A DNA stretch of 64,000 nt from Pseudogymnoascus verrucosus (taxonomy: Eukaryota), in the NCBI GenBank assembly GCA_001662655.1, contig KV460221.1; one strand, 5' to 3'. The notes under the pieces are model-generated. The model made no database searches. It had not been told where the DNA came from and worked only from the letters and a program-made list of their open reading frames with translations. Of the stretch, positions 1-12,096 are shown in pieces (within the stretch, counting starts at the first letter, position 1; each line of letters opens with the position of its first letter). The position numbers and the translations under genes were made by a program.

Positions 1-20
1 AACCCTAACCCTAACCCTAA
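1..20 (+). repeat. Telomere repeat (CCCTAA)n, left chromosome end
   Basis: Window begins aaccctaaccctaaccctaa, i.e. TTAGGG on the minus strand. Confidence 0.93.
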
Positions 21-3000
21 CACAACCCGACGGCATCCCTTACTCTAGATGAATTCTGTCATGGCATCCTCATCCACCTGCTCCACCGAATACTCACTTA
101 TAATCTCCCTCCGTTTCCATCCACTACTGCTCTCTACCTGCGTAATAATCACCGACTCACTTACCTCACCGTTCTGTCCTCTACGCCCGGACTGCTGTAC
201 GAAACTGGTCAATCTATATGGCCGACCAATGTGAATAATTCTCACAATTCCCTTAATGTTGATCCCTGTCCCTAATGCTCCTGTGGCCACAATCCACCCA
301 CCCTCGCCGCCAATCCATTGCTGTAAAACCTCGCCCTTATCGTCTGCCTTTGCTCTATAAAACGGGCACTTCAATTCCTTGCTGATGAACCCACCGGTGT
401 CATAACTCCGTACGTATATGACCCCTCGACTTCCTGCGCTCAATGTCGCCTGCTGCACATACTTGATGGCAATTTCCGACGGTGCCTCGTCCTTGCTGTC
501 CCTAACCTGATATCGGATTGTCTTTCGTGCTGTATTCCGCCGGAAAATCATTGTATTCTCAATGCATAACCGCTCCCTCAACACATCTTCTAACTCAATC
601 ATCAACGTGGCCGTCAATCCGGTAAATGGACAATTCAAATACCGTAACGTCCACAACTCTCGCAACCGCTCCCGGTACGATGTGTCTGTGTATGTAACAT
701 GGCACTCGTCAAAAAACACGTGGGCTAACTGCCCTTCCAATTCCAACCCTTTAGCATAATGCCTAAACCCTCCCTCTACCGCTCGATCTGCGCTGACCAC
801 AATCAACTGCTGCAATTCATGTCCGGACTGCTCATTGATCCACTCCTTACAATTCAACCCAGCTGCCTCCCCACAGCTGACAATGTCATCCACCAATGCT
901 GCAAATGGCACTACTACAATCACCGTCTGCTGACGGGTCATGGCCGCCACCGAAAAAAACAATGCTGACTTCCCACTGCTAGTGGGCAACACAATGACTA
1001 ATGGCCGTGTCAGCGATGGGTGGTGCACTAACTCTAATGCTGCCGCCTATCCTTCTGACCGTGGCTTCGCATAGCTGTCATGGTAAATCCGCTGCAATCC
1101 AATCAATGCTTGGTCCGACATATCAATCCGCTCCCTCTTAATCGGACGGCTGACCAACGCCTAGCTGGCCTCGCGACGATGACCTGCGCCCTTAAACCCC
1201 TGATCCCCTTTTTTAGCCATCTTCCACAATCCGTGCCACGCAATCGATGCCTGCTCATATGCCGTCACCAACTCGGGCCCTAATCGATGCAAAAATGCCC
1301 CATCAATGGCATAATGTGCCTAGGCTACCCGCTGCCCGTGCCCGGACTGTCTGTTCTCATGTTAACCCAATGTCACTAATTTCGGGATACCTAACCACCT
1401 ACCTAACCATAATATGTCGAAATGTATCCAATTCCAACTCCTCCTCATCATCCCCTTCTGCAAACTCCTCATCCCCATCCTCTGCATCCTCGTTCTCCTT
1501 CTCCCATGTCTTGCTGGCTCGCATTAAATGCCGTGTAGCGATGCCAATAGCGACATGCCTCTAACCTGACGCTGTCAACCGCACCCCTAACTGCTTCCTA
1601 GTGGTGGCGCCCAATGCTTGGCTGAACTCCTCCCTGGCCTATAGCCCACGTCCATCCCTAAACAAATACTCTGACTCCCTCTGGTCCAACGCCCGCGCAA
1701 ATGGTCTGACCCTGACCAAATACTAGGCTAATATCTGACCCACCTCTTCTGGTAAACACTGCACAATGTACTCGGTGTTGCCTCGTCTCTTTCGCGCCTT
1801 GTCATACATGGTTAAAAAACACATCTGTCCATTGATGACATATATGTTCCGGGCTGAATAAACGCTGTTATTGACCTTGATCGAACCCAATTCAGGCCCA
1901 CGTGCAGGCTGCCCCCTAGTGACATGCATGCACACCATCAACTTACGCAAAAACTGACGCTCTCTGGTCAAATACGCCTGGACTTGCCCATCAACCCACT
2001 CCAACTCTTCGCTGTCTGCCTTTTTCTTTAACATATTCTACTGGCCATCCCCCCTCTAGGCTCGTTCTAACAAATTCCGGTAATCTCCCTTGACCTGGTC
2101 TTGATTCTGGACATGATCGATGAAACTAAACCCTTGCCGCCGGAATGCCTGGCTCCACGCTATGCTGTCGACGATCCGCTCCAAATCTATGGTCTTAACT
2201 GGTGATTCAAATGTCAACACCATTAATAATTCCTGTAATTCACGAACCAACACCTCGCACATCGTCTCTATCTTGGCTAACTGCACGGGCTGCCCTAAAT
2301 AATATATCGTCTGTTCGTCATCTAACTAATGGACGTTGGACGGCGACTGATGGGTCTTGTTGAACTTCTTGCCCATGGCTAACTGGGTTAAAATGCTGGA
2401 CGTCGGTGAAAATGCCCCCTCGCACAAATGCTTTCGACGTAACTTATGAATCCGGTCGGGGATCGATTCGATGTCAGCCTTGCTCTGTAACCGTAACTTA
2501 GGCCATGGTTCGCACAGAACGGCCACCTCTAACATGACTAAACGGTTGACCTATAACATGCCTGCTAAAATCCCTGTATAAAAAAATGCAGAACGTAATG
2601 TCTGACTCTGGCTGTCGACACCTCACACGGCTAAATAATGCATCATAGGTGAATTATATAACCTAATGCGACTAGTGTCCTGCATCACGGTTAACATACA
2701 CAAACACATCAACGCATTTTTCAACTGGGTTTCTTCATTCTCATCACATTCTAGGTCATTCTCCTTCATCTCTTGTCGTATGCGCTGAATACACTTCCAT
2801 TGGGCTTGGGTGTACTTGACGCAGGTTTCTATGATGCGGGTTAATCTTCATACAAAAATTTCTAATAATCTGAATATATTTGAAAACAATTATTTTACCG
2901 AAACCATATTTCAACCCAAATAAATCAACTCACCCGTCTCATCTGTCCATTCACTAATGGGCGCTGTTCGCATCATATAACAAATAAAACTCTCGAAAAA

Positions 3001-3933
3001 CTCGCTGTATTTATCAATGCTCTTCGCGTTCTGTGGTAATTCAAATGGTCGTTGGCTGGCGGCCTCATTCTTAGGCGACGACCACCACTTCAATGCATCC
3101 TTGTGGTCGGTGGCTTCCAACGTATCCAAACATCGTTTGAAAATGCCTTTCTATGCCTGTAATAATCGTCCTAATTCGGGCTCGTCGGGATCGGGTTTCT
3201 AGGTGAAATTGAACGTTTTGACCATATCATGCTTTGACTGGCTTATCACTTCATTCCACTTAGTGTACTGCAACCACGAATCCATCTCTACTGCAGGCAC
3301 ATTCTTTAACAACGTCAATCGTCGCTCCTGGGCGCTGTCTTTCCATTTCTCAATGTCCTGCACTATCTTGTCAACATTACCTTGGTTGCCATGCCCCCCG
3401 TTATCTGTAACCCTAACCCCAACCCCAACTTCGTCGGTTTCTTCGCCTACGTCTCGTGTTCTCACCCGACGGGCCTGGCGCTCTTGCTCTTGACCCTTAG
3501 CCTCATCAACTATCCAATATCGCGCTCTCCGGTCATCAAACCATGACTGTAACTGGACAATTTCGTACAACTCTTCGTCTGCAACCCTCTGCTTGTTGTG
3601 CGCTTTGTTGCCGTGTTGTTTTAATGCGACCCGGCTTTGGGTCATATACCTGCAATCCTGGCATTTCAAACTGTATATGCTGGGAATGATGGGTTGCGGG
3701 GCCGATCCATCACTGGGTAATGTGACTGTGGTATGGTCGTATGTAAATGGGAACTCCTTAATATACTCTTCTACCTTCTTTCTTAATTCAATGGGTGTTT
3801 TATGCTTGTCTGCTAAATGTCGGGAAATGGCGGTCGGCTGTAATGCGTATTTGCACTGCAAACAAACCAACACATTAAATTCCACATTCAACGCAATCAA
3901 ATGGGTTAATGCTTCGGGTATGGGTTGGGCCAT
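21..3933 (-). pseudogene. Telomere-linked RecQ helicase (TLH-like): N-terminal DUF3505/OrsD-like C2H2 region, central tyrosine-recombinase-like domain, DExH helicase; RIP-inactivated and truncated by the telomere
   Basis: ORF pieces 3199-3933 (LVCLQC..HLADKH, CQDC..HGNKAH, LQSWF..RYWIV), 1723-2034 and 45-1028 (LPTSSGKS Walker A, FFDECH, LTATL, ATGALGTGINI, QQSGR). Many TAG/TAA stops where Gln/Trp codons are expected. Probable introns 2829-2933 and 1351-1402. Confidence 0.9.
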
Positions 3934-4302
3934 GATTCTGCTTTACTGCGTGTGATTTTCAAGTTCATCGGACTGCTTTGTGGGCTGCAATTGTGGGCTT
4001 GGGGTTAACTCAATCACGTCGTGTTTGGGTTGGGTCCCCGCACGGTCCGCACCTTATTTTCCCCATACAAAAAAAACCCAATCACGCTGTGATTGGGGAT
4101 TACTACAAGTTAGGATAGGTGGGTAGGTGGGTAAAGGGCAGGTAGGTGAAGTAGACAGAGAGTGGGGTAGTTGGTGTAGAAGGTGAAGCTGTAGTAGAGA
4201 GTAGATGATCAAGGGTGGTAAGAGGGGAGCCGGGGGAGGGGTACTGCGATTGATATAGGCCAAGGAGGCAAGTGTGTAAGTGAATAACCTACCGGACGAA
4301 AA

Positions 4303-4445
4303 GTGAATCACAAAGGGACATAAATGTGAATGACCTATGAGACGAGATTGAATCACAAAGGGACGTGAATGTGAATAAGCTGTAAGGCCAAGGTGAATCA
4401 CAAAGGGACGTGAATGATGATGTCAAGGCGAGCAACAAGGGACGT
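4303..4445 (+). repeat. 45-bp-period direct repeat array with conserved core TGAATCACAAAGGGAC(G/A)T(G/A)AATG and variable spacers
   Basis: GAATC of the core at 4305, 4350 and 4395; partial ACAAGGGAC at 4435 and ACAAAGGGAC at 4502. Confidence 0.85.
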
Positions 4446-4560
4446 TCAAGCGAGTAATAGAGAGCAATAAATAGAAAAGCAAAGGGAAAGGTCGACCTAT
4501 AACAAAGGGACATAGATGATAGAGAATGAAGGAGAGCTGGGGTTCCGATAGATGCCCCTA

Positions 4561-5197
4561 TTAGTATAGCTCGAATTGGATGAGCGCAGCCGCTGCAACC
4601 TTGACCCCCCAGATTGCCTTGCCGCCTCCAAAGCTTGTTGCTCTGCCGCACCATCCCAGGAACTCATCGACATCCCCAAACCTCTGCTGGAACTGCTCTA
4701 GCAGCCACTCCTCCGCACTGCTGCCACAGAAGATGCCATAGCAGAGCGGCATGACGATGTCAGCATAGAGGCAGCTCTGACAGTCGTGATACGGGCTGAT
4801 CTACAGCCCCCTGCGCCCAACAGCGTCCCTCGCACGACTGCGAGCCTCGAAGAACTCGGACCGGCGCCAGCATGTAGGGAAGGCGTGGTCCCATGCGTTG
4901 CCGAGCGCCCTGCAGAGTAGGCATGTGCCCTGGACCGCAAGGAGGTCCTCCTGGTATCGGCTGAGCTCGAGGTCGGCCAGGCGGCGCTTCTCCTAAATAG
5001 CTGCGCTGCCGGTAGGCTGGAGGGCTGGGACGGCAGGGGCAGCAGGCAGCGGAGCCCGAGCCGGACCAGCGCCGCAGATGTCACACGCAGCGTCCTCGTC
5101 GGCCTGGCATTGTCGCCGCCAGTGCAGCTCCAGGTCGAGGTGTTCGCTCAGGCAGGTCCGGCGGCACTCCTAGCCAAGCAGGTAGCGATGGCGTAGC
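4561..5197 (-). pseudogene. Orphan RecQ/TLH C-terminal zinc-binding region (helicase core missing)
   Basis: Minus-strand translation HRYLLG*ECRRTCLSEHLD..QC..AACDIC, then CLLC and further Cys pairs, ending IQFELY* at 4561. Confidence 0.75.
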
Positions 5198-5205
5198 TAG
5201 GGTGA

Positions 5206-7991
5206 TTACACAACCTCAAAGTAGCGAACGTGCCGGTTCTCCTTGAAAAAGGTTTGGAGAAAGCAGGCTGTATACTTCTTGGCTTGCCTTGCTCGCTGTG
5301 GCTGAAGCTGATGTATGTCGGATACATGCCGGTGCATTGTCTTCTCGCTGACTGTATAAAAAAGGGGTCCAGCTGCACAGGCCTCACAACGATAGCCCTT
5401 AAGTAGCTAGAGACCAGTGATTGCAGGACTGCGAGGTAGAGGTAGAGTGACATCCTTAGGCTAGGCAAGCTCGTACTAGGCGAACTGCTGGACTCGGGCC
5501 TTGCAGACTAGGCCGAGGATTCTATGAACTGTTCGTAGGTGTCGGTACCAGGCTATCTCTGTTGTCTGAAGGGCTGACTCGCATATTAGACAGAGCAGCA
5601 CTTTGTACTGACTCATATATTGGAAGTCTACAGTTGGAGAGGGAGGACTAGGACAGTGTCGCTTCGCTGGCAGATCTAGCGTCTGGTGGCTCTGCTCTTC
5701 TATGCCTAGGCCTCTCTTTGTAGAGCAGCCCTCTAGCCTAGGGCTAGGCACAGGGGCACGCAGCTGGAGTAGACGCAGCAGGCTGTCGGAGCGGCACTGG
5801 TCGCGGTAGTGCTGTTCGTTCCACTGCTGCCAGAGAGTAGAGAGGCGTAGGTAGAGCTCGAGCAGCTCGGGCTGGAGCCGGGTTGGATAGGAGCGATCGA
5901 TTGCGTAGCTAGTTAGCAGCATCCGAGTGCTGTGCCCAGCACCCATAGCAAGGATGCTTGCTGGCTCAGAGGCAGACTTAGGCTCGTAGAAGTTGATCTA
6001 CTCAACTAGCTTGCTAATGTAACGCTTAGCGATGGCAAGAGACGCCTAGCGATATAGCGCGAGGCCTATTGGTGATGGTAGGTCTTTCGTTGCACCCTAG
6101 AGTATCTCAGTGGCCTGTAGGGAGGACAGGTGCCTCCTCTTCCTCCTAGGATCTTGGAAGAGGAACTCTAGGGCTAAGCAGAGGTGGGCAAGGCTAAGCT
6201 GGCGATATAGGAAGTCTATGAACGGCCGGATGTAAACGAGGTACTAATAAACGGCCCTTCCAAGTGCATTAGGCAGATATCGTACAATGTAAAACGAATG
6301 GTTGTTTGTAGCCCTTAACTTGTTATATTCAAACACAATTGCAACACGGCCATTGATGATGAAGACGTTCCGTATAGCCTGCTCCGTATTGCAGACTCGG
6401 ACAGCAGTGATCTCTAAGCCTCGCGCTAGGAGGCCTGCTATGACATGAACTGACGTGAAGATCTCGTTCGAGAGCTGGGCCCCAAGCTCGGCATACTTAA
6501 GACACCCAGCACTTATCCAGCGACCGCCCTTTACTAGGCCGAGGGCTAGGGCAGACCAGGCACGGCGCGAGAGGGCCTTATAAGCAAACCTCACGTCGTT
6601 CTTCTCCTCGCGTAGGAACGACCAGCCAGCTCTCCTGCAGGTCAGGTCATCTCTAACTAAGCAGAGGTTAGGGGAGGGTGGTTGCCATCCAAGCATGGCC
6701 TGCTCTACCCGCTCCTCAACCTTCTTAATAGACATTGCATATAGGCAGGTGAGGTCAAGCACGCGAACTGCCTAGTGTGCAATTGAAAAGGATCGCCCGT
6801 CTGCAGCCCACGCCAGGTTGGCTCGCGCCCCCTCCTTCTTAACAATCGACTTCCCATAGGCGCGTAGCTCGATCATCTCTCCCATTAGATGAAACCCACC
6901 ACGGAGTAGGTATTTGGTCCGGACCTGCTCGAGCCGCCTCACCTAGTCGCTATATGTATCCCGCGCAGGCCAGGGCTGTTGTAGGGTGGAGTAGGCACGC
7001 AGGGGCAGTGCGTATTCGAGGAGGAGCAGCCGGCCAACCCAGATCAGGGCCGAGAGCATAGGCGTGTAGCTATAGGCTGACTTGTATGCTAGTGCCCGCC
7101 GGTGAACCCCAAGAACACCAGTGAAGTGCACGAGGACTGCTGGGGCCAGGTCGCCAGTTGTGCTGCGGAAGGTCCAGAAGGTTATCGACAGCTGCAGCAG
7201 GGCCTCTGCCAGCTGGGATCTAGGGCTGGAGCCTGCGTCTCTCGCTTGTTAGCAGGTCCGACCTCCCTAAAAGTGGCCTGGGGCCAGAACTACCCCCGTG
7301 GGCAAGACTCACCTAGCCCCTCTAGGCGATCGCCCTTGCTATCAGGCAGGGCTTCCCATACAGACTCCATCAGGGCTGCTTCCCGTTCGCAGAACTGAAC
7401 CCCGTAGATCTCCTGCCGCAGAGGCTCGCCTGTTGCCCAGACCCGGAATATGTAGCAGATGAAGCGCTTCCAGATCGCAATGTAGCGTGCGCGCCCAGCA
7501 TCAGTCTGCAAGGGCTAGAAGGGTACTGGCTGGAAGTGGCGCAGGTGGTAGGTCCGAAGCCAGCAGCGGAGCTGGTGATGGGTCTGCCTAAGGGTCTCTT
7601 CAGCCCGGGCAAACATCTAGTCGGTAGCCTGGAGTAGGAGACGCAGCTTCGCCTCGTCAGCAGCAGGGCTCACAAACTCAGTGCCAGCCCAGTCTCCAAG
7701 CACATAGTCGTCGTCTGAGGACGTTGGCTGCAGGGTGCTTGCAGAGAGGATGTCGAGGGGGTGGTTCGCAAGCCGGGCCGGCCACTTTGTATACCTAAGC
7801 CAGAGCGTAGTCTCGTCGTCGTCGACGCAAGAGCGGCCATCGACCTCGTAGTCCTCATCTGCAGCCAGGAGGCGTGCGTCCTCCTCCTCTTCCTGGATTA
7901 GAAGGAGGGCGTCCTTGCTGGGTACCAGAGGCTCTGCTGCGCCTGCTGGCACGCACGCTGCATCTATACCCGCGCCTGCATTCGGAGCCAT
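5206..7991 (-). pseudogene. TLH-related gene with tyrosine-recombinase-like domain and C-terminal DUF3505-like zinc-finger domain; RIP-mutated
   Basis: WLRYTKW (cf. WLQYTKW in the terminal TLH), HFTGVLG, ARGLEI, RNVFIING, EYNK, YIVRYLP, LYR*A, GAGHSTRMLLTSYAID, LLCLIC..HLRTVH, YRCEAC..HVSDIH, LQTFF..RYFEVV*. Many TAG stops. Confidence 0.8.
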
Positions 7992-8082
7992 ATCTTCGAA
8001 TGCAGCGCTCACAGGTGCAACGCTCACGACTGTGTACACAGTAGGAGGAGGAGGAGCAGCACGCCTCCAGGAGAAAGGGGCT

Positions 8083-8219
8083 AGCGAATCAGCGGGCAGG
8101 GATCTGGCATTACGCCGCACGGCCGGCCAGGCCTACGGCGGGACGCGTTTGGCGGGAGGGGCCAGTGCGGCGTAATGCCAGGGGCGCAGCGAATCAGCGG
8201 GCCGGGATCGGGCATTACG
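8083..8219. repeat. Nested direct and inverted repeats upstream of the second TLH-related gene
   Basis: 32-bp direct repeat 8083-8114 / 8188-8219 with 2 mismatches; perfect 17-bp inverted repeat 8104-8120 / 8165-8181. Confidence 0.85.
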
Positions 8220-8248
8220 GCGCGATGCCGCCAAAGCCTCTTAGGTGG

Positions 8249-11186
8249 TAGTGTTCAGCACGGATACTAAAATACCCGTGGTATCTAGGTATATCCTCGA
8301 GTAATTACCTACCTAGTGATATTTTAGGAGTATCTGGCGTATCCGGATACTCTCAAGTATGTATCTAGATACATGCTAAGAATAGCTAAGAATAGCCAAG
8401 ACCTCTTTTTTCTAACGTCGTAAGACCTGTAGTAATGCTGTATAAAGTGATAATTATCCTCAAAATGAGCAACTCGTCGTTATTAGATATACTAACAGAG
8501 CTTAAGGGCTATAATAGCTATAATACTCATAATGAGCCAAGTCTGCTGACGCTGCCGCCCCCTATTTATATTTAACAGGATATTAATCCTACACTGCTCT
8601 AGCTTCAGCCTCTAGGACAAATGCTGCTACTAACGTCGTTAATACTATTCACAAAGCTATTATATTTGCAATTAATACTTAATAGCCACCCACCTACAGT
8701 TAAAGTAACTTGCTTGCAACTAGACTACAGATATTCACCTACTCTATAGCCATTAAGTTAGTGTTACGGCTAGCGTTTACAGCCGCACTTTCGCCGACAC
8801 ACCGGTTATAGTAGTAACAAACATGTTAGCGAGTTGGCCGCCCTTAAGGCAGGGTCAACATCAGGTAACGGAGTTTTCCCAGGCACCTGAGAATTGCCAG
8901 GTACCGGACAGAGCAGGTACCGGACTCTTTCCAGGTACCTGACTATTACTAGGTACCGGACAGAGCAGGTACCGGACTATTCGTGGGCACCTCCTTATGA
9001 GATCCCCACGTGATGGAATAACAGGAATAGTAAGAATAGCAACGGAGTTTGCTATTCCAACTATTCCCTTTAGCACGACGCCTCTATATAAGTAGATAGT
9101 TAGTTCTTAGATAGGAGCTTCGTGCTCAACTCAATATAGTATTTTGTTATATACTGTAACGTGTTTTACGAAAGCCTTTGTGTCTGATCCCCTGCCTCCT
9201 CTGTTAAGTAAACCAACGCAACGAAACCTCTGTAAGTCTTATAGTTTAAGACCCAGCGTTACAGTTAGACATTAACTAGTAATCTTTAGAAGCACTATAC
9301 CTTAAAGCATCTAATAGTAGCATATATAATGAAAGGTCCTACGATTACACTGTTAAGCCTATTAAGTAGTGCATTGTTGTTTTTTTTAAGCTACGGCTAT
9401 AGAACCTGCAAGTCCAGCCTGCTTAAGCTTAAGCATTAAATCGTAGAGCAAAATACCAAGAGTTATTACTCTCATTTGTTATATTAAATAACCTCTCCTT
9501 ATAGCTTATTAAGAGCTATTCGTTCCATTAATTAGTACACTTCTTAAGCCTAAGTACTCTGTTGATATCGTCACGAACGCTACACTAAGAGCTATAGCGG
9601 CAATTCTCATATTACTAAGGATTGCTACAATTAGAACTCTAGTCTCATATTACCTATGGCGGCTAGATATCTATTACGACAGATGCATGGACTACATAGA
9701 ACTATACTAAGTACACTACTGTTACAGGTCATTAGATTAATGAGAAGTGGCAGCACTAGTGTGTATTACTTAATGTAATCCACCTTTAAGAGCCAATTCA
9801 TAGCAGCGAATATCTTGCTTAAGAGTTAGCTGCAGTAACAGATAGCTTTGAAATTACAGGTGCTATCTTTACTTATACGCAGGATAATGCCTTAGCGAAT
9901 ACTGTGATGCTTTTGGAATATGAGAAAATAGCTAGTGAGTAGTAGACGACTATTTAACAGCCATGGACGTTTACTATAAAGGAAGGGGACGTTTAGTGTA
10001 TTACTTATATTATTAATCTTGCAGTTTAAGCTGCTCTAAAGAGCTTGAAAGCCAGCCTAGATATAGAAACAGAAGCGTACTAGTGTAAGCAAGGGCTTGC
10101 CTAGATTCCATAGCGTATTAATAACGCTTCTACTAAAGTATCAGCTACGCTTAAGAAGCTCTAAAGGCATATTTATGTCTTTTAAAACCAAAGAGCATAG
10201 AAGGATGCTTTATAGAAGTAGATAAAAGCTGTAGGCTAGAAGCCACGCTAGTTATCACTTAATATGCCTATACGCTGGAATTCAACGTACTATATGCTTA
10301 AAACAGCTATAAAGCTTTAAATACCAATTACTACAGTATGCTTAACGTAGAAGCTTAATGAGTATTATACTCTTACGACGAATCAGTAGTGTAAGCACTT
10401 AGCTGTTGCTACAATTTGCAACCTACAAATGAATCATACAGTATTTAAGAAGGTATATCCAAATGCTATAGACGATACATGAAGATTACGAGCAAGAGCG
10501 TAGTTCGAAGACGTTTGTAGAACGTACTAAAAGCGAGAGTATCACCTTAATATAGAGCGAATTACCTACAAAACAGCTCTTACAGAAGTAATAGGTGCTA
10601 CTGCCACAATAGATCAAGAACCTAATTCCGACGAAGATCTATTTGCGTTAGAAGGCTTAGCTTTTCAAGAGCTAGAATAGAGGCGCTGGATGCTTAAACC
10701 ACGGCCTGGTGAGCATACCGATATTCTTAAATATTAGTGCGCAAAGCAATACTAATATCTAGTTATTGCCCGTATTGCTTAAGATCATCTAGCAATTCTA
10801 GCGACCTCTGCAGCTTCTAAGCGGGTGTTTAGTAATAGAAGTGATATTATCACAAAGAAGCGGAACAGGTTGTTACCACCTTCTATTAGATATTTACTGT
10901 GCTTACGGAATTAGGGTAAAATACAGGAGGCTGATAGCGATGGTGACGATGCTGACGATGAAGCACCTGAATAGGGGCTTACGGAAAAGGGGGGGGTCTT
11001 GCGGAAAGGGGTTTACTATTATCAAAAGCTTCATTTTTTTTTATATACGCTATTCTATTTTTATATACGATATTCAGCCTCATGTATCCGGATACTTACC
11101 TACCCTACCCGTCAGATCGTCGCCGGGTATATACCCTACCTGTGAGGTTCACGGATACTACCCGGATACGTATCCGCCGAACACTG
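8249..11186 (+). mobile_element. hAT-family DNA transposon, RIP-degenerate
   Basis: Imperfect TIRs tagtgttcagcacggatac / gtatccgccgaacactg with subterminal GGATAC/GTATCC repeats. Transposase motifs TTDAWT (~9676), MPIRWNSTY (~10263) and DHLAILATSAASKRVFS (~10783, hAT dimerisation domain). TpA-rich. Confidence 0.88.
8762..9263 (+). mobile_element. Solo LTR (502 bp) nested in the hAT element
   Basis: TGTTAC...GTTACA termini; 5-bp TSD GTTAG at 8757-8761 and 9264-9268; internal duplicated AGGTACCGGACAGAGCAGGTACCGGACT; TATATAA at ~9085. Confidence 0.9.
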
Positions 11187-12096
11187 CATAAAGGTCTTTA
11201 GGCATGAAGCCTTATGGAGAGGATAACATAGAGGTCACGCATGCAATGATCAGAGCAACAGCAGCCAACCGAGAAAGTGGCAATTATGTGATGAGATTGC
11301 TGGCGAAAATACCAGGTAACATAATACTTACTGCTGATTTGATAGAAGTAGCGGCAAGAAACAAAGAGAAGGGCGAGGATATTATCAAGCTACTCTTAAA
11401 TAGTGACAATGTTCAAATTGCAGATGGCTCAGTAGCAGCAATAGCAAAATGGTATGATGTTGAAGTACTAAAATTGTTAGTAGGTAGGCGAGGAGATGAT
11501 GTGAGGATTACAGAAAAGGTGGTCAAGGCAGCAGCAGGGAAGTCAAAGAGTGGCGAGGTAGTGATGATGCTACTTCTCAATCATCTAGGAGACAATTCTA
11601 GATCACAGAGAAAATGGTTAGGATTATTGCAGGATCATTTCACCACATGGTCATGGCACTACTTCTTGATCGCCGAGGAGACGATGTGATGATTACAGAA
11701 GAGGTGGTCAGGGAAGCAGCAAGGAATTCCGAGAGTGGCACGGAGGTGATGAAACTGCTTCTCGACCGCCGAGGAGACGATGTGACTATTACAGAAGAGG
11801 TAGTAAAGACAGCTGCAGGGAATGCTGGGAGTGGCAAGGAGGTGATGGAACTGCTTCTCGATCGCCGAGGAGATGAAGTGATGATTACGGAGGAGGTAAT
11901 TAAAACAGCAGCGGGGAATTCTGGATGTGGCAGTTGGGTGATAGAACTGCTTCTTGACCGCCGAGGAGACGACGTGACGATTACAAACGAGTTGTCAACG
12001 CAGCAGCACGGGATGAGGAATGCTCAATGCGACATATCCACAGGTAATGTCATCATAAACCAAAAAGATGGCAACCCTCGTGGTATGCCTTCTTAA
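11187..12096 (+). pseudogene. 3' fragment of a fungal NLR-type gene with ~37-aa LLLDRRGDDVTITEEVVKAAAGN repeats (ankyrin-like/DUF7104-like)
   Basis: Tandem repeat units across ORFs 11204-11689 and 11614-12096 with frameshifts; 5' end lost at the hAT TIR. Confidence 0.75.

What the first reader, a model, noticed from the sequence alone, without database searches (positions are those of the whole stretch)
5206..7991. Second, divergent recombinase-like TLH relative with permuted domain order
Seen: a GC-richer gene in the same orientation, directly upstream of the terminal TLH. It repeats the motif set: ARGLEI (Arg 6421-6423), EYNK, LYR[Q]A and GAGHSTRMLLTSYAID (GH-x8-Y, Tyr 5905-5907). It also shares WL.YTKW, RN.(F/Y).ING and YAID....RL.PEL with the terminal TLH. 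Its DUF3505-like double zinc finger is C-terminal (stop 5206), whereas in the terminal TLH it is N-terminal, and no helicase is fused. Inference: conservation of exactly the catalytic positions across two very divergent copies supports a functional YR. The family has at least two architectures (ZnF-YR-helicase fusion versus YR-ZnF with a separate helicase gene), and members stack head-to-tail at chromosome ends.
Basis: partly seen in the sequence, partly recalled or inferred. Interest (0 to 1): 0.85.

Follow-up and report, generated by a model that had tools for sequence, protein, structure and literature searches.

The report
Dead recombinase-like partner of telomere helicase
Next to the helicase gene at this fungal chromosome end lies a dead copy of a large unnamed gene family whose core is predicted to fold like a DNA-cutting tyrosine recombinase, which suggests how these chromosome-end gene blocks might move.

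Summary
Window 5206-7991 (minus strand) is a paralogue of the middle of the terminal telomere-linked helicase (TLH) gene (25% identity over 378 aa, E 5e-28). Its OrsD/DUF3505 zinc finger is C-terminal and it has no helicase.

This copy is dead: 12 in-frame stops and at least one frameshift.

New here:
- The helicase-less proteins form one clade, separate from all TLHs (SH-aLRT 98).
- In at least six lineages, this window among them, such a gene sits directly upstream of a TLH on the same strand, as a gene pair.
- This window also holds a remnant of a second TLH tail (4567-5205).

Catalysis and mobility are inferred, not shown. My literature searches found no paper linking the "TLH domain" to recombinases. 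An earlier report of this scan reached the same fold assignment on another genome.

The parts
1..20 (.). Terminal telomere repeat, (CCCTAA)n on the plus strand; the window starts inside it
   Evidence: Read directly. CCCTAACCCTAA matches exactly at 3-14 and 9-20; 4 matches at up to 1 mismatch in the window against 0.3 expected.
45..3933 (-). Terminal TLH pseudogene. Order along the gene: N-terminal OrsD zinc finger (3538-3891), N domain (2938-3144), core-binding-like 'mid' region (2059-2550), recombinase-like catalytic region (1218-2007), DEAD/Helicase_C (45-1028). It is cut by the telomere just after its 'GCRRVVL' motif.
   Evidence: Pfam hits; six-frame HMM hits; translation; 13 TAG, 3 TGA and 2 TAA in-frame stops plus a frame change near 1400.
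3934..4566 (.). Spacer upstream of the terminal TLH, with a 45-bp unit repeated 3 times at 4280-4416
   Evidence: Tandem Repeats Finder: period 45, 3.0 copies, 79% matches, score 160; sequence read.
4567..5205 (-). Remnant of the Cys-rich C-terminal tail of another TLH helicase gene. It starts within about 10 codons of the stop of the gene under study and has 4 TAG stops.
   Evidence: BLASTP against residues 1324-1390 of the intact 1397-aa TLH of L052, E 2e-5. The 'LRHRYLLG*ECRR...CDIC' stretch fits the post-helicase CRR...C..C pattern seen in TLH tails of L008, L017, L020, L033 and L052. Stop counts.
5206..7991 (-). The gene of the finding: pseudogene of the helicase-less, recombinase-like paralogue of TLH ('A-type'). 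Frame 0 runs from ATG 7991 to about 7347; the frame changes within 7219-7346; a second frame then runs to the stop at 5206-5208.
   Evidence: tblastn of intact relatives: P0002 residues 18-210 match 7925-7347 and residues 281-955 match 7218-5209, at 53-62% identity. 56 homologues found. 11 TAG and 1 TAA stops.
7347..7829 (-). N-terminal helical domain with the WLRYTKW motif (7782-7802)
   Evidence: HMM 'nterm' hits at 7620-7829 (E 4e-24) and 7347-7511 (E 7e-18); motif coordinates.
6550..7218 (-). Helical 'mid' region. In the models it aligns with the core-binding domain of XerH and Cre.
   Evidence: HMM 'mid' hits. In the domain-only model, XerH aligns over 237 residues and Cre over 233, spanning model residues 4-435.
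5800..6537 (-). Recombinase/topoisomerase-IB-like catalytic region, with Arg 6421-6423, Lys 6319-6321, Arg 6049-6051, His 5932-5934 and Tyr 5905-5907
   Evidence: HMM 'cat' hits; residue coordinates; fold matches; conservation of these columns.
5239..5634 (-). C-terminal OrsD/DUF3505 double zinc finger
   Evidence: Pfam PF12013, E 1e-13; HMM 'znf' hits at 5482-5634 and 5239-5400.
8250..8251 (.). Likely upstream edge of the unit: the junction with a higher-copy repeat
   Evidence: Contigs of all four runs laid break here with loose ends. Depth in the likely source run rises from 197 to 1218 in the last bin. GC falls from about 0.52 to 0.37 beyond it.

Best explanation
Window 5206-7991 (minus strand) is a mutation-killed copy of an unnamed, very large Pezizomycotina gene family.

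What the family is. It is the helicase-less sister lineage of the telomere-linked helicases (TLH). Both lineages share a module of about 700 aa:
- an N-terminal helical domain with the WL.YT.W motif;
- an acidic linker;
- a two-domain core whose predicted fold is that of tyrosine recombinases and type IB topoisomerases (a core-binding-like domain plus a catalytic domain).

The core has a near-invariant Arg...Lys...Arg...His-x8-Tyr set. TLHs add a RecQ-like helicase after this module. The lineage found here ends instead in an OrsD double zinc finger.

How the genes are arranged. The two lineages are typically encoded as a co-oriented pair: the helicase-less gene first, the TLH next, reading toward the telomere. 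In this window the original TLH partner has been reduced to its C-terminal tail (4567-5205). A second TLH copy, cut by the telomere, follows.

Likely mechanism (inferred, not shown). In intact copies the module is a DNA breaking-and-rejoining enzyme that works through a phosphotyrosine intermediate. With the helicase, it recombines or moves the TLH-containing block between chromosome ends, so the block behaves as a selfish subtelomeric element.

Status of each step.
- Shown here: paralogy, architecture, predicted fold, residue conservation, clade structure, gene pairing, and pseudogene state.
- Inferred: catalysis, its substrate, and mobility.
For: Paralogy with the neighbouring TLH: E 5e-28, 5e-8 and 3e-7. 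A profile comparison of the family with an intact TLH gives probability 100, E 7.8e-48, over 654 columns.

Family members. One search found 56 homologues of 349-1065 aa. All that carry a source name are called hypothetical, uncharacterized or unnamed. Full-length ones are 920-1020 aa with a C-terminal PF12013.

Fold.
- Foldseek top hits are also Cre, XerH and XerA, and viral integrases and topoisomerases.

Active-site columns over 355 domain rows from 313 proteins of both lineages, counted among non-gap rows:
- Arg 298 of 301
- Lys 301 of 302
- Arg 276 of 279
- His 252 of 263
- Tyr 264 of 264

The same columns are invariant in alignments A1, A2, A4 and A5. In the TLH alignment the helicase Walker A and DExH residues are invariant as well.

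Placement in the model. The secondary-structure order places Arg at a helix start, Lys in the beta hairpin, the second Arg in a helix, and His and Tyr on the last helices. From recall, this is the canonical layout.

Size and copy number.
- 7134 representative clusters at E<=1e-3, of which 1468 at E<=1e-30.
- Related organisms hold many diverged copies, differing almost only by transitions.

Clades. With IQ-TREE on 55 rows, all 29 helicase-bearing rows lie on one side of a branch with SH-aLRT 98. The other side holds the 24 helicase-less rows with a C-terminal zinc finger and 2 unclassified rows. FastTree on 203 rows agrees: 0 of 86 tips in the helicase-less clade carry a helicase.

Pairing. 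The order helicase-less gene then TLH, on one strand, is seen in L008, L013, L016, L017, L019, L033, L052 and the window. A second gene's zinc finger begins in L006, L014, L015, L028 and L051 before the contig ends or diverges.

Selfish behaviour, from the literature.
- TLH-containing blocks occur singly or in arrays at 79-92% of Fusarium oxysporum chromosome ends (bioRxiv 10.1101/2024.02.27.582403, section 14 read).
- TLH is present in 14 copies in one Botrytis strain and absent from two others (bioRxiv 10.1101/2022.03.07.483234, passages read).
Against: - No sequence-level link to any known recombinase. Pfam gives only OrsD at E<=1. PDB profile searches return no recombinase.
- All Foldseek E-values are above 1e-3 (best 0.019 and 0.024).
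- In the domain-only model the segment carrying His and Tyr has pLDDT below 50 (residues 405-449). In the full model the same segment scores 55-64.
- I could not superpose side chains, because no coordinates were available to me.
- The recombinase His of HxxR is absent.
- Ndc10 shows that this fold can serve as a non-catalytic DNA binder.
- Pairing is not universal. L010, L023, L026, L039 and L045 have 1.9-8.7 kb downstream without a second copy. L020-L022 and L025 are TLHs with no partner in the 1.1-3.1 kb of upstream sequence available.
- No terminal repeats, target duplications or interstitial telomere repeats were found around this copy.
- The copy in the window is dead, so nothing about it can be tested directly.
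Confidence: 0.6

Rival explanations
1. The module is catalytic but acts as a type IB topoisomerase or telomere-processing nickase for its helicase partner. It would relieve or create strand breaks during break-induced replication or recombination at chromosome ends. On this view it is not a site-specific recombinase or transposase, and the genes are host telomere-maintenance factors rather than a mobile element.
For: - The conserved set is R-K-R-H-Y without the recombinase His of HxxR. From recall, this is the pentad of poxvirus and bacterial type IB topoisomerases.
- Fusion to a RecQ-like helicase is found in 89 of the 201 proteins that hold a complete domain.
- Published discussion of TLHs proposes telomere-maintenance roles (passages of bioRxiv 10.1101/2024.02.27.582403).
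Against: - Simple recombinases (Xer, XerH, XerA, Cre, phage integrases) outrank topoisomerases in both structure searches, and they also align over the core-binding domain.
- Presence/absence between strains, thousands of diverged clusters and frequent decay fit a selfish element better than a housekeeping factor.
Confidence: 0.2
2. The recombinase-like fold is retained only as a DNA-binding scaffold, as in the kinetochore protein Ndc10. The conserved residues would bind DNA without cutting it.
For: - NDC10_II appears as a weak language-model neighbour, score 0.82.
- No sequence profile links the family to active recombinases.
Against: Tyr is kept in 264 of 264 non-gap rows. Both Arg and the Lys are kept in about 99% of rows, across two lineages only about 25% identical. 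That pattern is expected for chemistry, not for general DNA contact. Ndc10 also ranks below about 15 catalytic enzymes.
Confidence: 0.12
3. The gene in this window is still functional: its TAG codons are read through or edited, and the frame change is an intron.
For: - 11 of its 12 in-frame stops are TAG.
- The public annotation of a near-identical genome calls a protein here (P0011, 98% identical over its first exon).
Against: - That gene model is stitched from window 6735-6277, 5997-5575 and 4992-4564. It skips the stops and joins the remnant of a different gene.
- Relatives have Gln, Lys or Arg, not Trp, at the stop positions. This fits CAG-to-TAG transitions.
- The neighbouring TLH and the tail remnant carry 18 and 4 stops.
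- Copies in related organisms differ almost only by C>T and G>A changes.
- The TpA/ApT index is 1.41.
Confidence: 0.03

Closest known systems
Telomere-linked helicases (TLH: Magnaporthe TLH1, S. pombe Tlh1/Tlh2, Ustilago UTASa, Metarhizium and Fusarium TLHs)
   Same: - It shares the whole module of about 700 aa that precedes the helicase, including the roughly 250-aa 'TLH domain' placed just upstream of the helicase in the literature.
- It shares the OrsD/C2H2 double zinc finger.
- It is subtelomeric and reads toward the telomere.
- It is multi-copy and often decayed.
   Different: - It has no helicase.
- Its zinc finger is C-terminal.
- It belongs to a separate clade (SH-aLRT 98).
- It sits upstream of a TLH as a distinct gene.

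I did not examine S. pombe, Ustilago or Monosiga sequences. Their inclusion rests on the cited preprint.
Simple tyrosine recombinases (XerA, XerH, XerC/D, Cre, phage integrases)
   Same: - Arg, Lys, Arg, His and Tyr in the same order.
- His-to-Tyr spacing of 9. From recall, XerD has the same spacing.
- Two paralogous proteins encoded side by side recall XerC/XerD.
   Different: - No detectable sequence homology.
- The His of HxxR is not conserved.
- The protein is much larger and carries extra N-terminal and zinc-finger domains.
- One paralogue is fused to a helicase.
- Activity is untested.
Type IB topoisomerases and protelomerases
   Same: - From recall, the R-K-R-H-Y pentad without the extra His matches topoisomerase IB.
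   Different: - They rank lower than the recombinases.
- Nothing in the window indicates hairpin telomeres: it ends in ordinary CCCTAA repeats.
Eukaryotic recombinase-encoding mobile elements (Cryptons, Starship 'Captain' DUF3435 proteins, DIRS/Ngaro)
   Same: If mobile, it would be another eukaryotic element driven by a tyrosine-recombinase-type enzyme. It also occurs in fungi.
   Different: - No Pfam match to DUF3435, DUF3504, GCR1_C or Phage_integrase.
- It has a different domain set (OrsD zinc fingers, a RecQ-like helicase partner).
- It has a telomere-end location.
- Element ends are not defined.

Membership tests
Tyrosine recombinase / type IB topoisomerase superfamily (DNA breaking-rejoining catalytic core) | Catalytic-domain fold (helices, three-stranded sheet, C-terminal helices) | tested here: met
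   [not shown]
Tyrosine recombinase / type IB topoisomerase superfamily (DNA breaking-rejoining catalytic core) | Arg-I, beta-hairpin Lys, Arg-II, His/Trp-III and the nucleophile Tyr, in that order | tested here: met
   Non-gap counts over 355 domain rows: Arg 298 of 301, Lys 301 of 302, Arg 276 of 279, His 252 of 263, Tyr 264 of 264. Positions relative to secondary structure fit. Side-chain superposition was not possible.
Tyrosine recombinases proper (Xer/Cre/integrase type) | His of the HxxR box (His-II) | tested here: not met
   The residue three positions before Arg-II is S (82 rows), A (55), Q (50), R (38) or G (33). It is His in no common class.
Tyrosine recombinases proper (Xer/Cre/integrase type) | Sequence-profile match to a curated recombinase family (Pfam Phage_integrase and relatives; PDB chains) | tested here: not met
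   Pfam at E<=1 gives only OrsD for 17 family members and for the window gene. PDB profile searches with A1 and A2 list no recombinase at E<=10.
Tyrosine recombinase / type IB topoisomerase superfamily (DNA breaking-rejoining catalytic core) | Covalent 3'-phosphotyrosine intermediate and strand rejoining | not testable with these tools
   Needs biochemistry on an intact homologue.
Telomere-linked helicase (TLH) family | RecQ-like helicase domain in the same protein | tested here: not met
   No DEAD or Helicase_C hit in 5206-7991. In the trees, 0 of 86 tips of its clade carry a helicase.
Telomere-linked helicase (TLH) family | Homology to the TLH-specific region upstream of the helicase | tested here: met
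   BLASTP E 5e-28 against the adjacent TLH. Profile against an intact TLH: probability 100, E 7.8e-48.
Telomere-linked helicase (TLH) family | Subtelomeric position | tested here: met
   The gene ends 5.2 kb from the terminal CCCTAA repeats at window 1-20.
OrsD / DUF3505 zinc-finger family (PF12013) | Match above the Pfam gathering score | tested here: met
   52.2 bits against a cut-off of 26.6, E 1e-13, at the C-terminus. 13 of 17 relatives match as well.
Starship Captain (DUF3435) and Crypton recombinases | Match to DUF3435 / DUF3504 / GCR1_C profiles | tested here: not met
   None of these families appears in the Pfam scans at E<=1. No structure of these families is in the libraries searched, so fold-level kinship is untested.

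The most novel reading that the evidence does not exclude
TLH-containing subtelomeric blocks would be a previously unrecognised class of eukaryotic mobile element. The element would be targeted to chromosome ends and run by two paralogous recombinase-like proteins, in the manner of XerC/XerD. One subunit is the helicase-less protein with a zinc finger, found here as a pseudogene. The other is fused to a RecQ-like helicase. Together they would excise and integrate the block through a phosphotyrosine mechanism, perhaps by recombining at or next to telomere repeats. That would explain three things: arrays of blocks separated by short telomere tracts, presence/absence between strains, and the long-unexplained 'TLH domain' shared from fungi to choanoflagellates.
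Probability: 0.2. Interest if true: 0.92.

Novelty: new variant of a known kind. Interest (0 to 1): 0.78.

Why it matters
TLH genes have been known at fungal chromosome ends for more than 20 years. Examples come from Magnaporthe, Ustilago, fission yeast, Metarhizium, Fusarium and Botrytis. Their function is unknown, and they carry a conserved 'TLH domain' of unknown role.

If that domain is a DNA breaking-and-rejoining enzyme, several things follow:
- TLHs would be recombinase-helicase fusions.
- The helicase-less family found here, thousands of 'hypothetical proteins', would be their partner.
- The spread and turnover of subtelomeric blocks would gain a concrete, testable mechanism.

The prediction can be tested directly with a Tyr-to-Phe mutant, including in fission yeast if its Tlh proteins keep the pentad. 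That was not checked here.

The family would also add a lineage to the short list of eukaryotic recombinase-type elements. It would give genome annotators a name for a large unannotated family.

Tried and rejected
- Whole-genome access: none is held for this window, so copy number in the same genome could not be counted directly.
- Sequence-profile searches of the core against Pfam and PDB chains: nothing but OrsD and chance hits.
- Foldseek against PDB and viral models: recombinases and integrases lead the lists, but no hit reaches E<=1e-3.
- Protein language-model neighbours: only weak leads at 0.82-0.83 (Phage_integrase in 17% of one cluster, NDC10_II, Integrase_2).
- Complex prediction of the helicase-less core with the TLH core of locus L052: no verdict, score 0.00 in both runs, controls not run, my alignments not used. 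This says nothing either way about binding.
- RNA evidence: no RNA holder listed for the stretch.
- A shared DNA core at the two TLH breakpoints (window 1-140 against 5101-5260): no meaningful similarity, best local score 16. I dropped the idea of an attL/attR-like duplicated core.
- Interstitial telomere repeats at unit borders, as reported for Fusarium: none near 3934-4566, 5206 or 8250. Only isolated hexamers occur, and 12-mers with one mismatch at 3411 and 12378.
- TAG read-through or editing as a way to keep the gene alive: rejected.
- First tries at translating 5206-7099, 47-1450, 4567-5122 and 5209-7250 used the wrong frame. They were repeated in frame where needed.
- Literature searches: 'telomere-linked helicase' with 'tyrosine recombinase' gave 0 papers. 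'DUF3505' with 'tyrosine recombinase' gave 1 unrelated paper. 'TLH domain' gave 3 papers: the recombinase terms were searched in the two TLH preprints and not found, and the third is an unrelated cancer paper seen only as a listing. Three broader combinations found nothing relevant. The original 2009 paper defining the TLH domain was not read; I know it only through citations. Supplements of the two preprints were not available.
Full report
**Setting.** The window begins inside a telomere: CCCTAA repeats at 1-20. On the minus strand, reading toward that end, lie two related genes.

The terminal one (3933 down to 45) is a telomere-linked helicase (TLH). It has an N-terminal OrsD zinc finger (E 2.9e-16) and DEAD/Helicase_C domains at 45-1028. 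It is riddled with stops and cut by the telomere.

Beyond about 11 kb the window holds ordinary fungal genes. The best-named hit to the studied gene is a Pseudogymnoascus verrucosus 'hypothetical protein', P0011. Its three exons map at 80-98% identity to window 6735-6277, 5997-5575 and 4992-4564. The window therefore comes from that species or a very close relative. The public gene model is an artefact stitched around stop codons.

- It aligns with the middle of the TLH at 25% identity over 378 residues, E 5e-28.
- The zinc fingers align separately at E 5e-8, and the N-terminal WL.YTKW region at E 3e-7.
- The OrsD finger is C-terminal here (E 1e-13) and N-terminal in the TLH.
- No helicase is present.

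**This copy is dead.**
- It has 11 TAG stops and 1 TAA stop in 896 codons.
- It needs a frame change inside 7219-7346.
- At nine aligned stops, ten relatives mostly show Gln, Lys or Arg. This fits CAG-to-TAG transitions.
- The TpA/ApT index is 1.41.
- Copies in three related organisms are numerous. They differ from the window almost only by transitions. In run X2, for example: C>T 172, G>A 145, A>G 58, T>C 43, and 38 transversions.
- The one identical contig comes from a run that may be the source of the assembly, so it is not independent support.

**What the family is.** A word-indexed search found 56 relatives. The full-length ones are 920-1020 aa with a C-terminal OrsD domain. Every hit that carries a source name is called hypothetical, uncharacterized or unnamed. 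They come from Leotiomycetes, Sordariomycetes and Dothideomycetes.

A profile of the core (alignment A2, 16 sequences translated from metagenome loci) was scored against 1.84 billion representatives. It found 7134 clusters at E<=1e-3 and 1468 at E<=1e-30. A search with the core of an intact TLH returned proteins that sources call 'recQ family helicase' or 'ATP-dependent DNA helicase tlh1/tlh2-like'. Names recovered for a sample of representatives were all ascomycete.

**The fold.** No Pfam or PDB sequence profile recognises the core. Two AlphaFold models were made:
- the full 968-aa relative P0002 (pLDDT 75.6);
- a 490-aa core from locus L003 (pLDDT 77.9, pTM 0.68).

In a search that aligns the model to 48,161 representative PDB chains, the first 12 rows for the full model are tyrosine recombinases or type IB topoisomerases. 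For the core model, the first 20 rows are those enzymes or their derivatives. Values for the core model:

|---|---|---|
| Archaeal Xer 4a8e (rmsd 3.1) | 11.9 | 173 |
| XerH | 10.3 | 237 |
| XerA | 10.1 | 155 |
| Brujita integrase | 9.8 | 236 |
| Cre | 9.4 | 233 |
| Bacterial topoisomerase IB | 8.2 | 189 |
| Protelomerase TelA | 6.5 | 250 |
| Ndc10 | 6.5 | 196 |

The longer alignments cover both the core-binding and the catalytic domains. Foldseek puts the same proteins on top but never below E 1e-3.

**The residues.** I tallied 355 domain rows from 313 proteins of both architectures. Among non-gap rows:

| Position | Kept |
|---|---|
| First Arg | 298 of 301 |
| Lys | 301 of 302 |
| Second Arg | 276 of 279 |
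| His | 252 of 263 |
| Tyr | 264 of 264 |

His and Tyr are nine residues apart. From recall, this is the spacing in XerD and vaccinia topoisomerase.

The residue where recombinases have the His of HxxR varies (S, A, Q, R or G). From recall, the conserved set therefore equals the topoisomerase IB pentad rather than the recombinase hexad.

In the TLH alignment the pentad is invariant alongside the helicase Walker A and DExH motifs. Conservation of this kind across lineages only 25% identical argues for chemistry rather than a mere DNA-binding scaffold. It does not prove it.

**Two lineages.** I classified the 201 proteins that hold a complete core:

| Architecture | Proteins |
|---|---|
| Finger, core, helicase | 56 |
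| Core, helicase | 33 |
| Core, C-terminal finger | 39 |
| N-terminal finger, core | 31 |
| Fingers at both ends | 4 |
| Bare core | 38 |

None combines a C-terminal finger with a helicase.

FastTree on 203 rows gives a TLH clade of 113 tips (86 with helicase, none with a C-terminal finger). It gives a helicase-less clade of 86 tips (43 with a C-terminal finger, none with a helicase) that includes the window's gene.

An IQ-TREE run on 55 rows puts all 29 helicase-bearing rows on one side of a branch with SH-aLRT 98. The window gene is thus not a recent duplicate of its neighbour. It belongs to an old sister lineage.

**A conserved gene pair.** I scanned the six-frame translations of 76 metagenome loci and the window with four domain models and a helicase query.
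- The order 'core-(finger) then (finger)-core-helicase' on one strand appears in L008, L013, L016, L017, L019 (4.9-kb spacer), L033, L052 and the window.
- In L006, L014, L015, L028 and L051 a second gene's finger begins before the contig ends or the sequence diverges.
- In L052 both genes are intact: 1159 aa with two OrsD fingers, then a 1397-aa TLH.
- Allowing for near-identical loci (L051=L052, L018=L019, L013-L017 related at 72-90%), this makes at least six separate lineages.

The pairing is not universal. L010, L023, L026, L039 and L045 show no second copy in 1.9-8.7 kb downstream. L020-L022 and L025 are TLHs without a partner in the 1.1-3.1 kb of upstream sequence available.

L014 ends in TTAGGG repeats and reads toward them, like the window. 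L013, L014 and L016 share a sharp upstream boundary with unrelated flanks. In the window, contigs of all four runs laid break at 8250/8251. These are hints of a discrete unit, not proof.

**An extra remnant.** Directly after the stop of the studied gene, 4567-5205 encodes the Cys-rich C-terminal tail of a TLH. It matches the last 70 residues of the L052 TLH at E 2e-5 and shows the CRR...C..C pattern. The gene's original partner therefore seems to have lost everything but its tail. The terminal TLH is a further copy.

Both TLH breakpoints fall within about 15 codons of the same CRR motif. The DNA shows no shared core, and I draw no conclusion from this.

**Comparison with what is known.** Published work describes TLHs as C2H2 fingers, a roughly 250-aa 'TLH domain' of unknown function just upstream of the helicase, and a RecQ helicase. 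It reports TLH-containing blocks, single or in arrays, with telomere repeats on both sides (bioRxiv 10.1101/2024.02.27.582403, passages and section 14 read). It also reports strain-specific presence (bioRxiv 10.1101/2022.03.07.483234, passages read).

In intact TLHs the catalytic-like region ends about 60-80 residues before the helicase Walker A motif. I therefore equate it with the 'TLH domain'. This is an inference, since I saw neither the figures nor the 2009 paper.

Full-text searches found no paper joining TLH with tyrosine recombinases. An earlier report of this scan on another genome (e1-7567757) independently stated that the TLH middle domain has a recombinase fold and residues. I had reached the same result before seeing it. 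It is not independent evidence.

**Verdict.** The recombinase-like nature and the two architectures hold. However, this copy is a pseudogene, the HxxR His is missing, and the 'stacking' is a conserved gene pair. The most likely working model has not been tested experimentally: a phosphotyrosine DNA breaking-rejoining enzyme that, with the helicase, moves or recombines the block at chromosome ends.

Noticed in passing
window 4567-5205 (minus strand): Remnant of the C-terminal tail of a second TLH helicase gene, wedged between the studied gene and the terminal TLH. Its start and the telomere truncation of the terminal TLH both lie within about 15 codons of the same CRR motif.
   Followed up: partly
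window 4280-4416: A 45-bp unit repeated 3 times (79% matches), about 350-480 bp upstream of the terminal TLH start codon at 3933. It could be a promoter or binding-site array.
   Followed up: no
window 8075-8230: Two imperfect direct copies of a stretch of about 45 bp (GCGAATCAGCGGGC.GGGATC.GGCATTACG...) just upstream of the studied gene. They are also visible as a repeated peptide in the translation.
   Followed up: no
window 8250-8251: Contigs of four sequencing runs from related organisms all break here, and depth jumps about six-fold. This is the junction with a higher-copy repeat and the start of an AT-rich, RIP-like stretch (GC 0.35-0.45) running to about 11 kb.
   Followed up: partly
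window 4564-6735 (P0011): The public protein VE01_04422 is a gene model spliced from three pieces of two different dead genes. It is an annotation artefact.
   Followed up: yes
window 45-7991: In-frame stops are overwhelmingly TAG: 28 of 34 across the three dead reading frames. This is as expected if CAG and TGG codons were hit by CpA-to-TpA transitions in GC-rich genes.
   Followed up: partly
L067:898-4265: Two copies of the recombinase-like core lie head to head (plus strand 898-2717, minus strand 2889-4265), forming a palindromic arrangement.
   Followed up: no
L013:1162-3411 and L014:5692-8059: The same gene pair sits next to a HET-domain gene in one locus. In another it sits next to a PNP_UDP_1 phosphorylase-family ORF followed by TTAGGG repeats. 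The flanks differ while the unit is 90% identical.
   Followed up: partly
P0243: A TLH-type protein, 50% identical to the fungal query, is labelled as coming from a Planctomycetes metagenome bin. This is probably fungal contamination of the bin.
   Followed up: no
window 11204-12096: ORFs with DUF7104 repeats (up to 4 copies, E 8e-58) and a weak ankyrin match, just inside the subtelomere.
   Followed up: no
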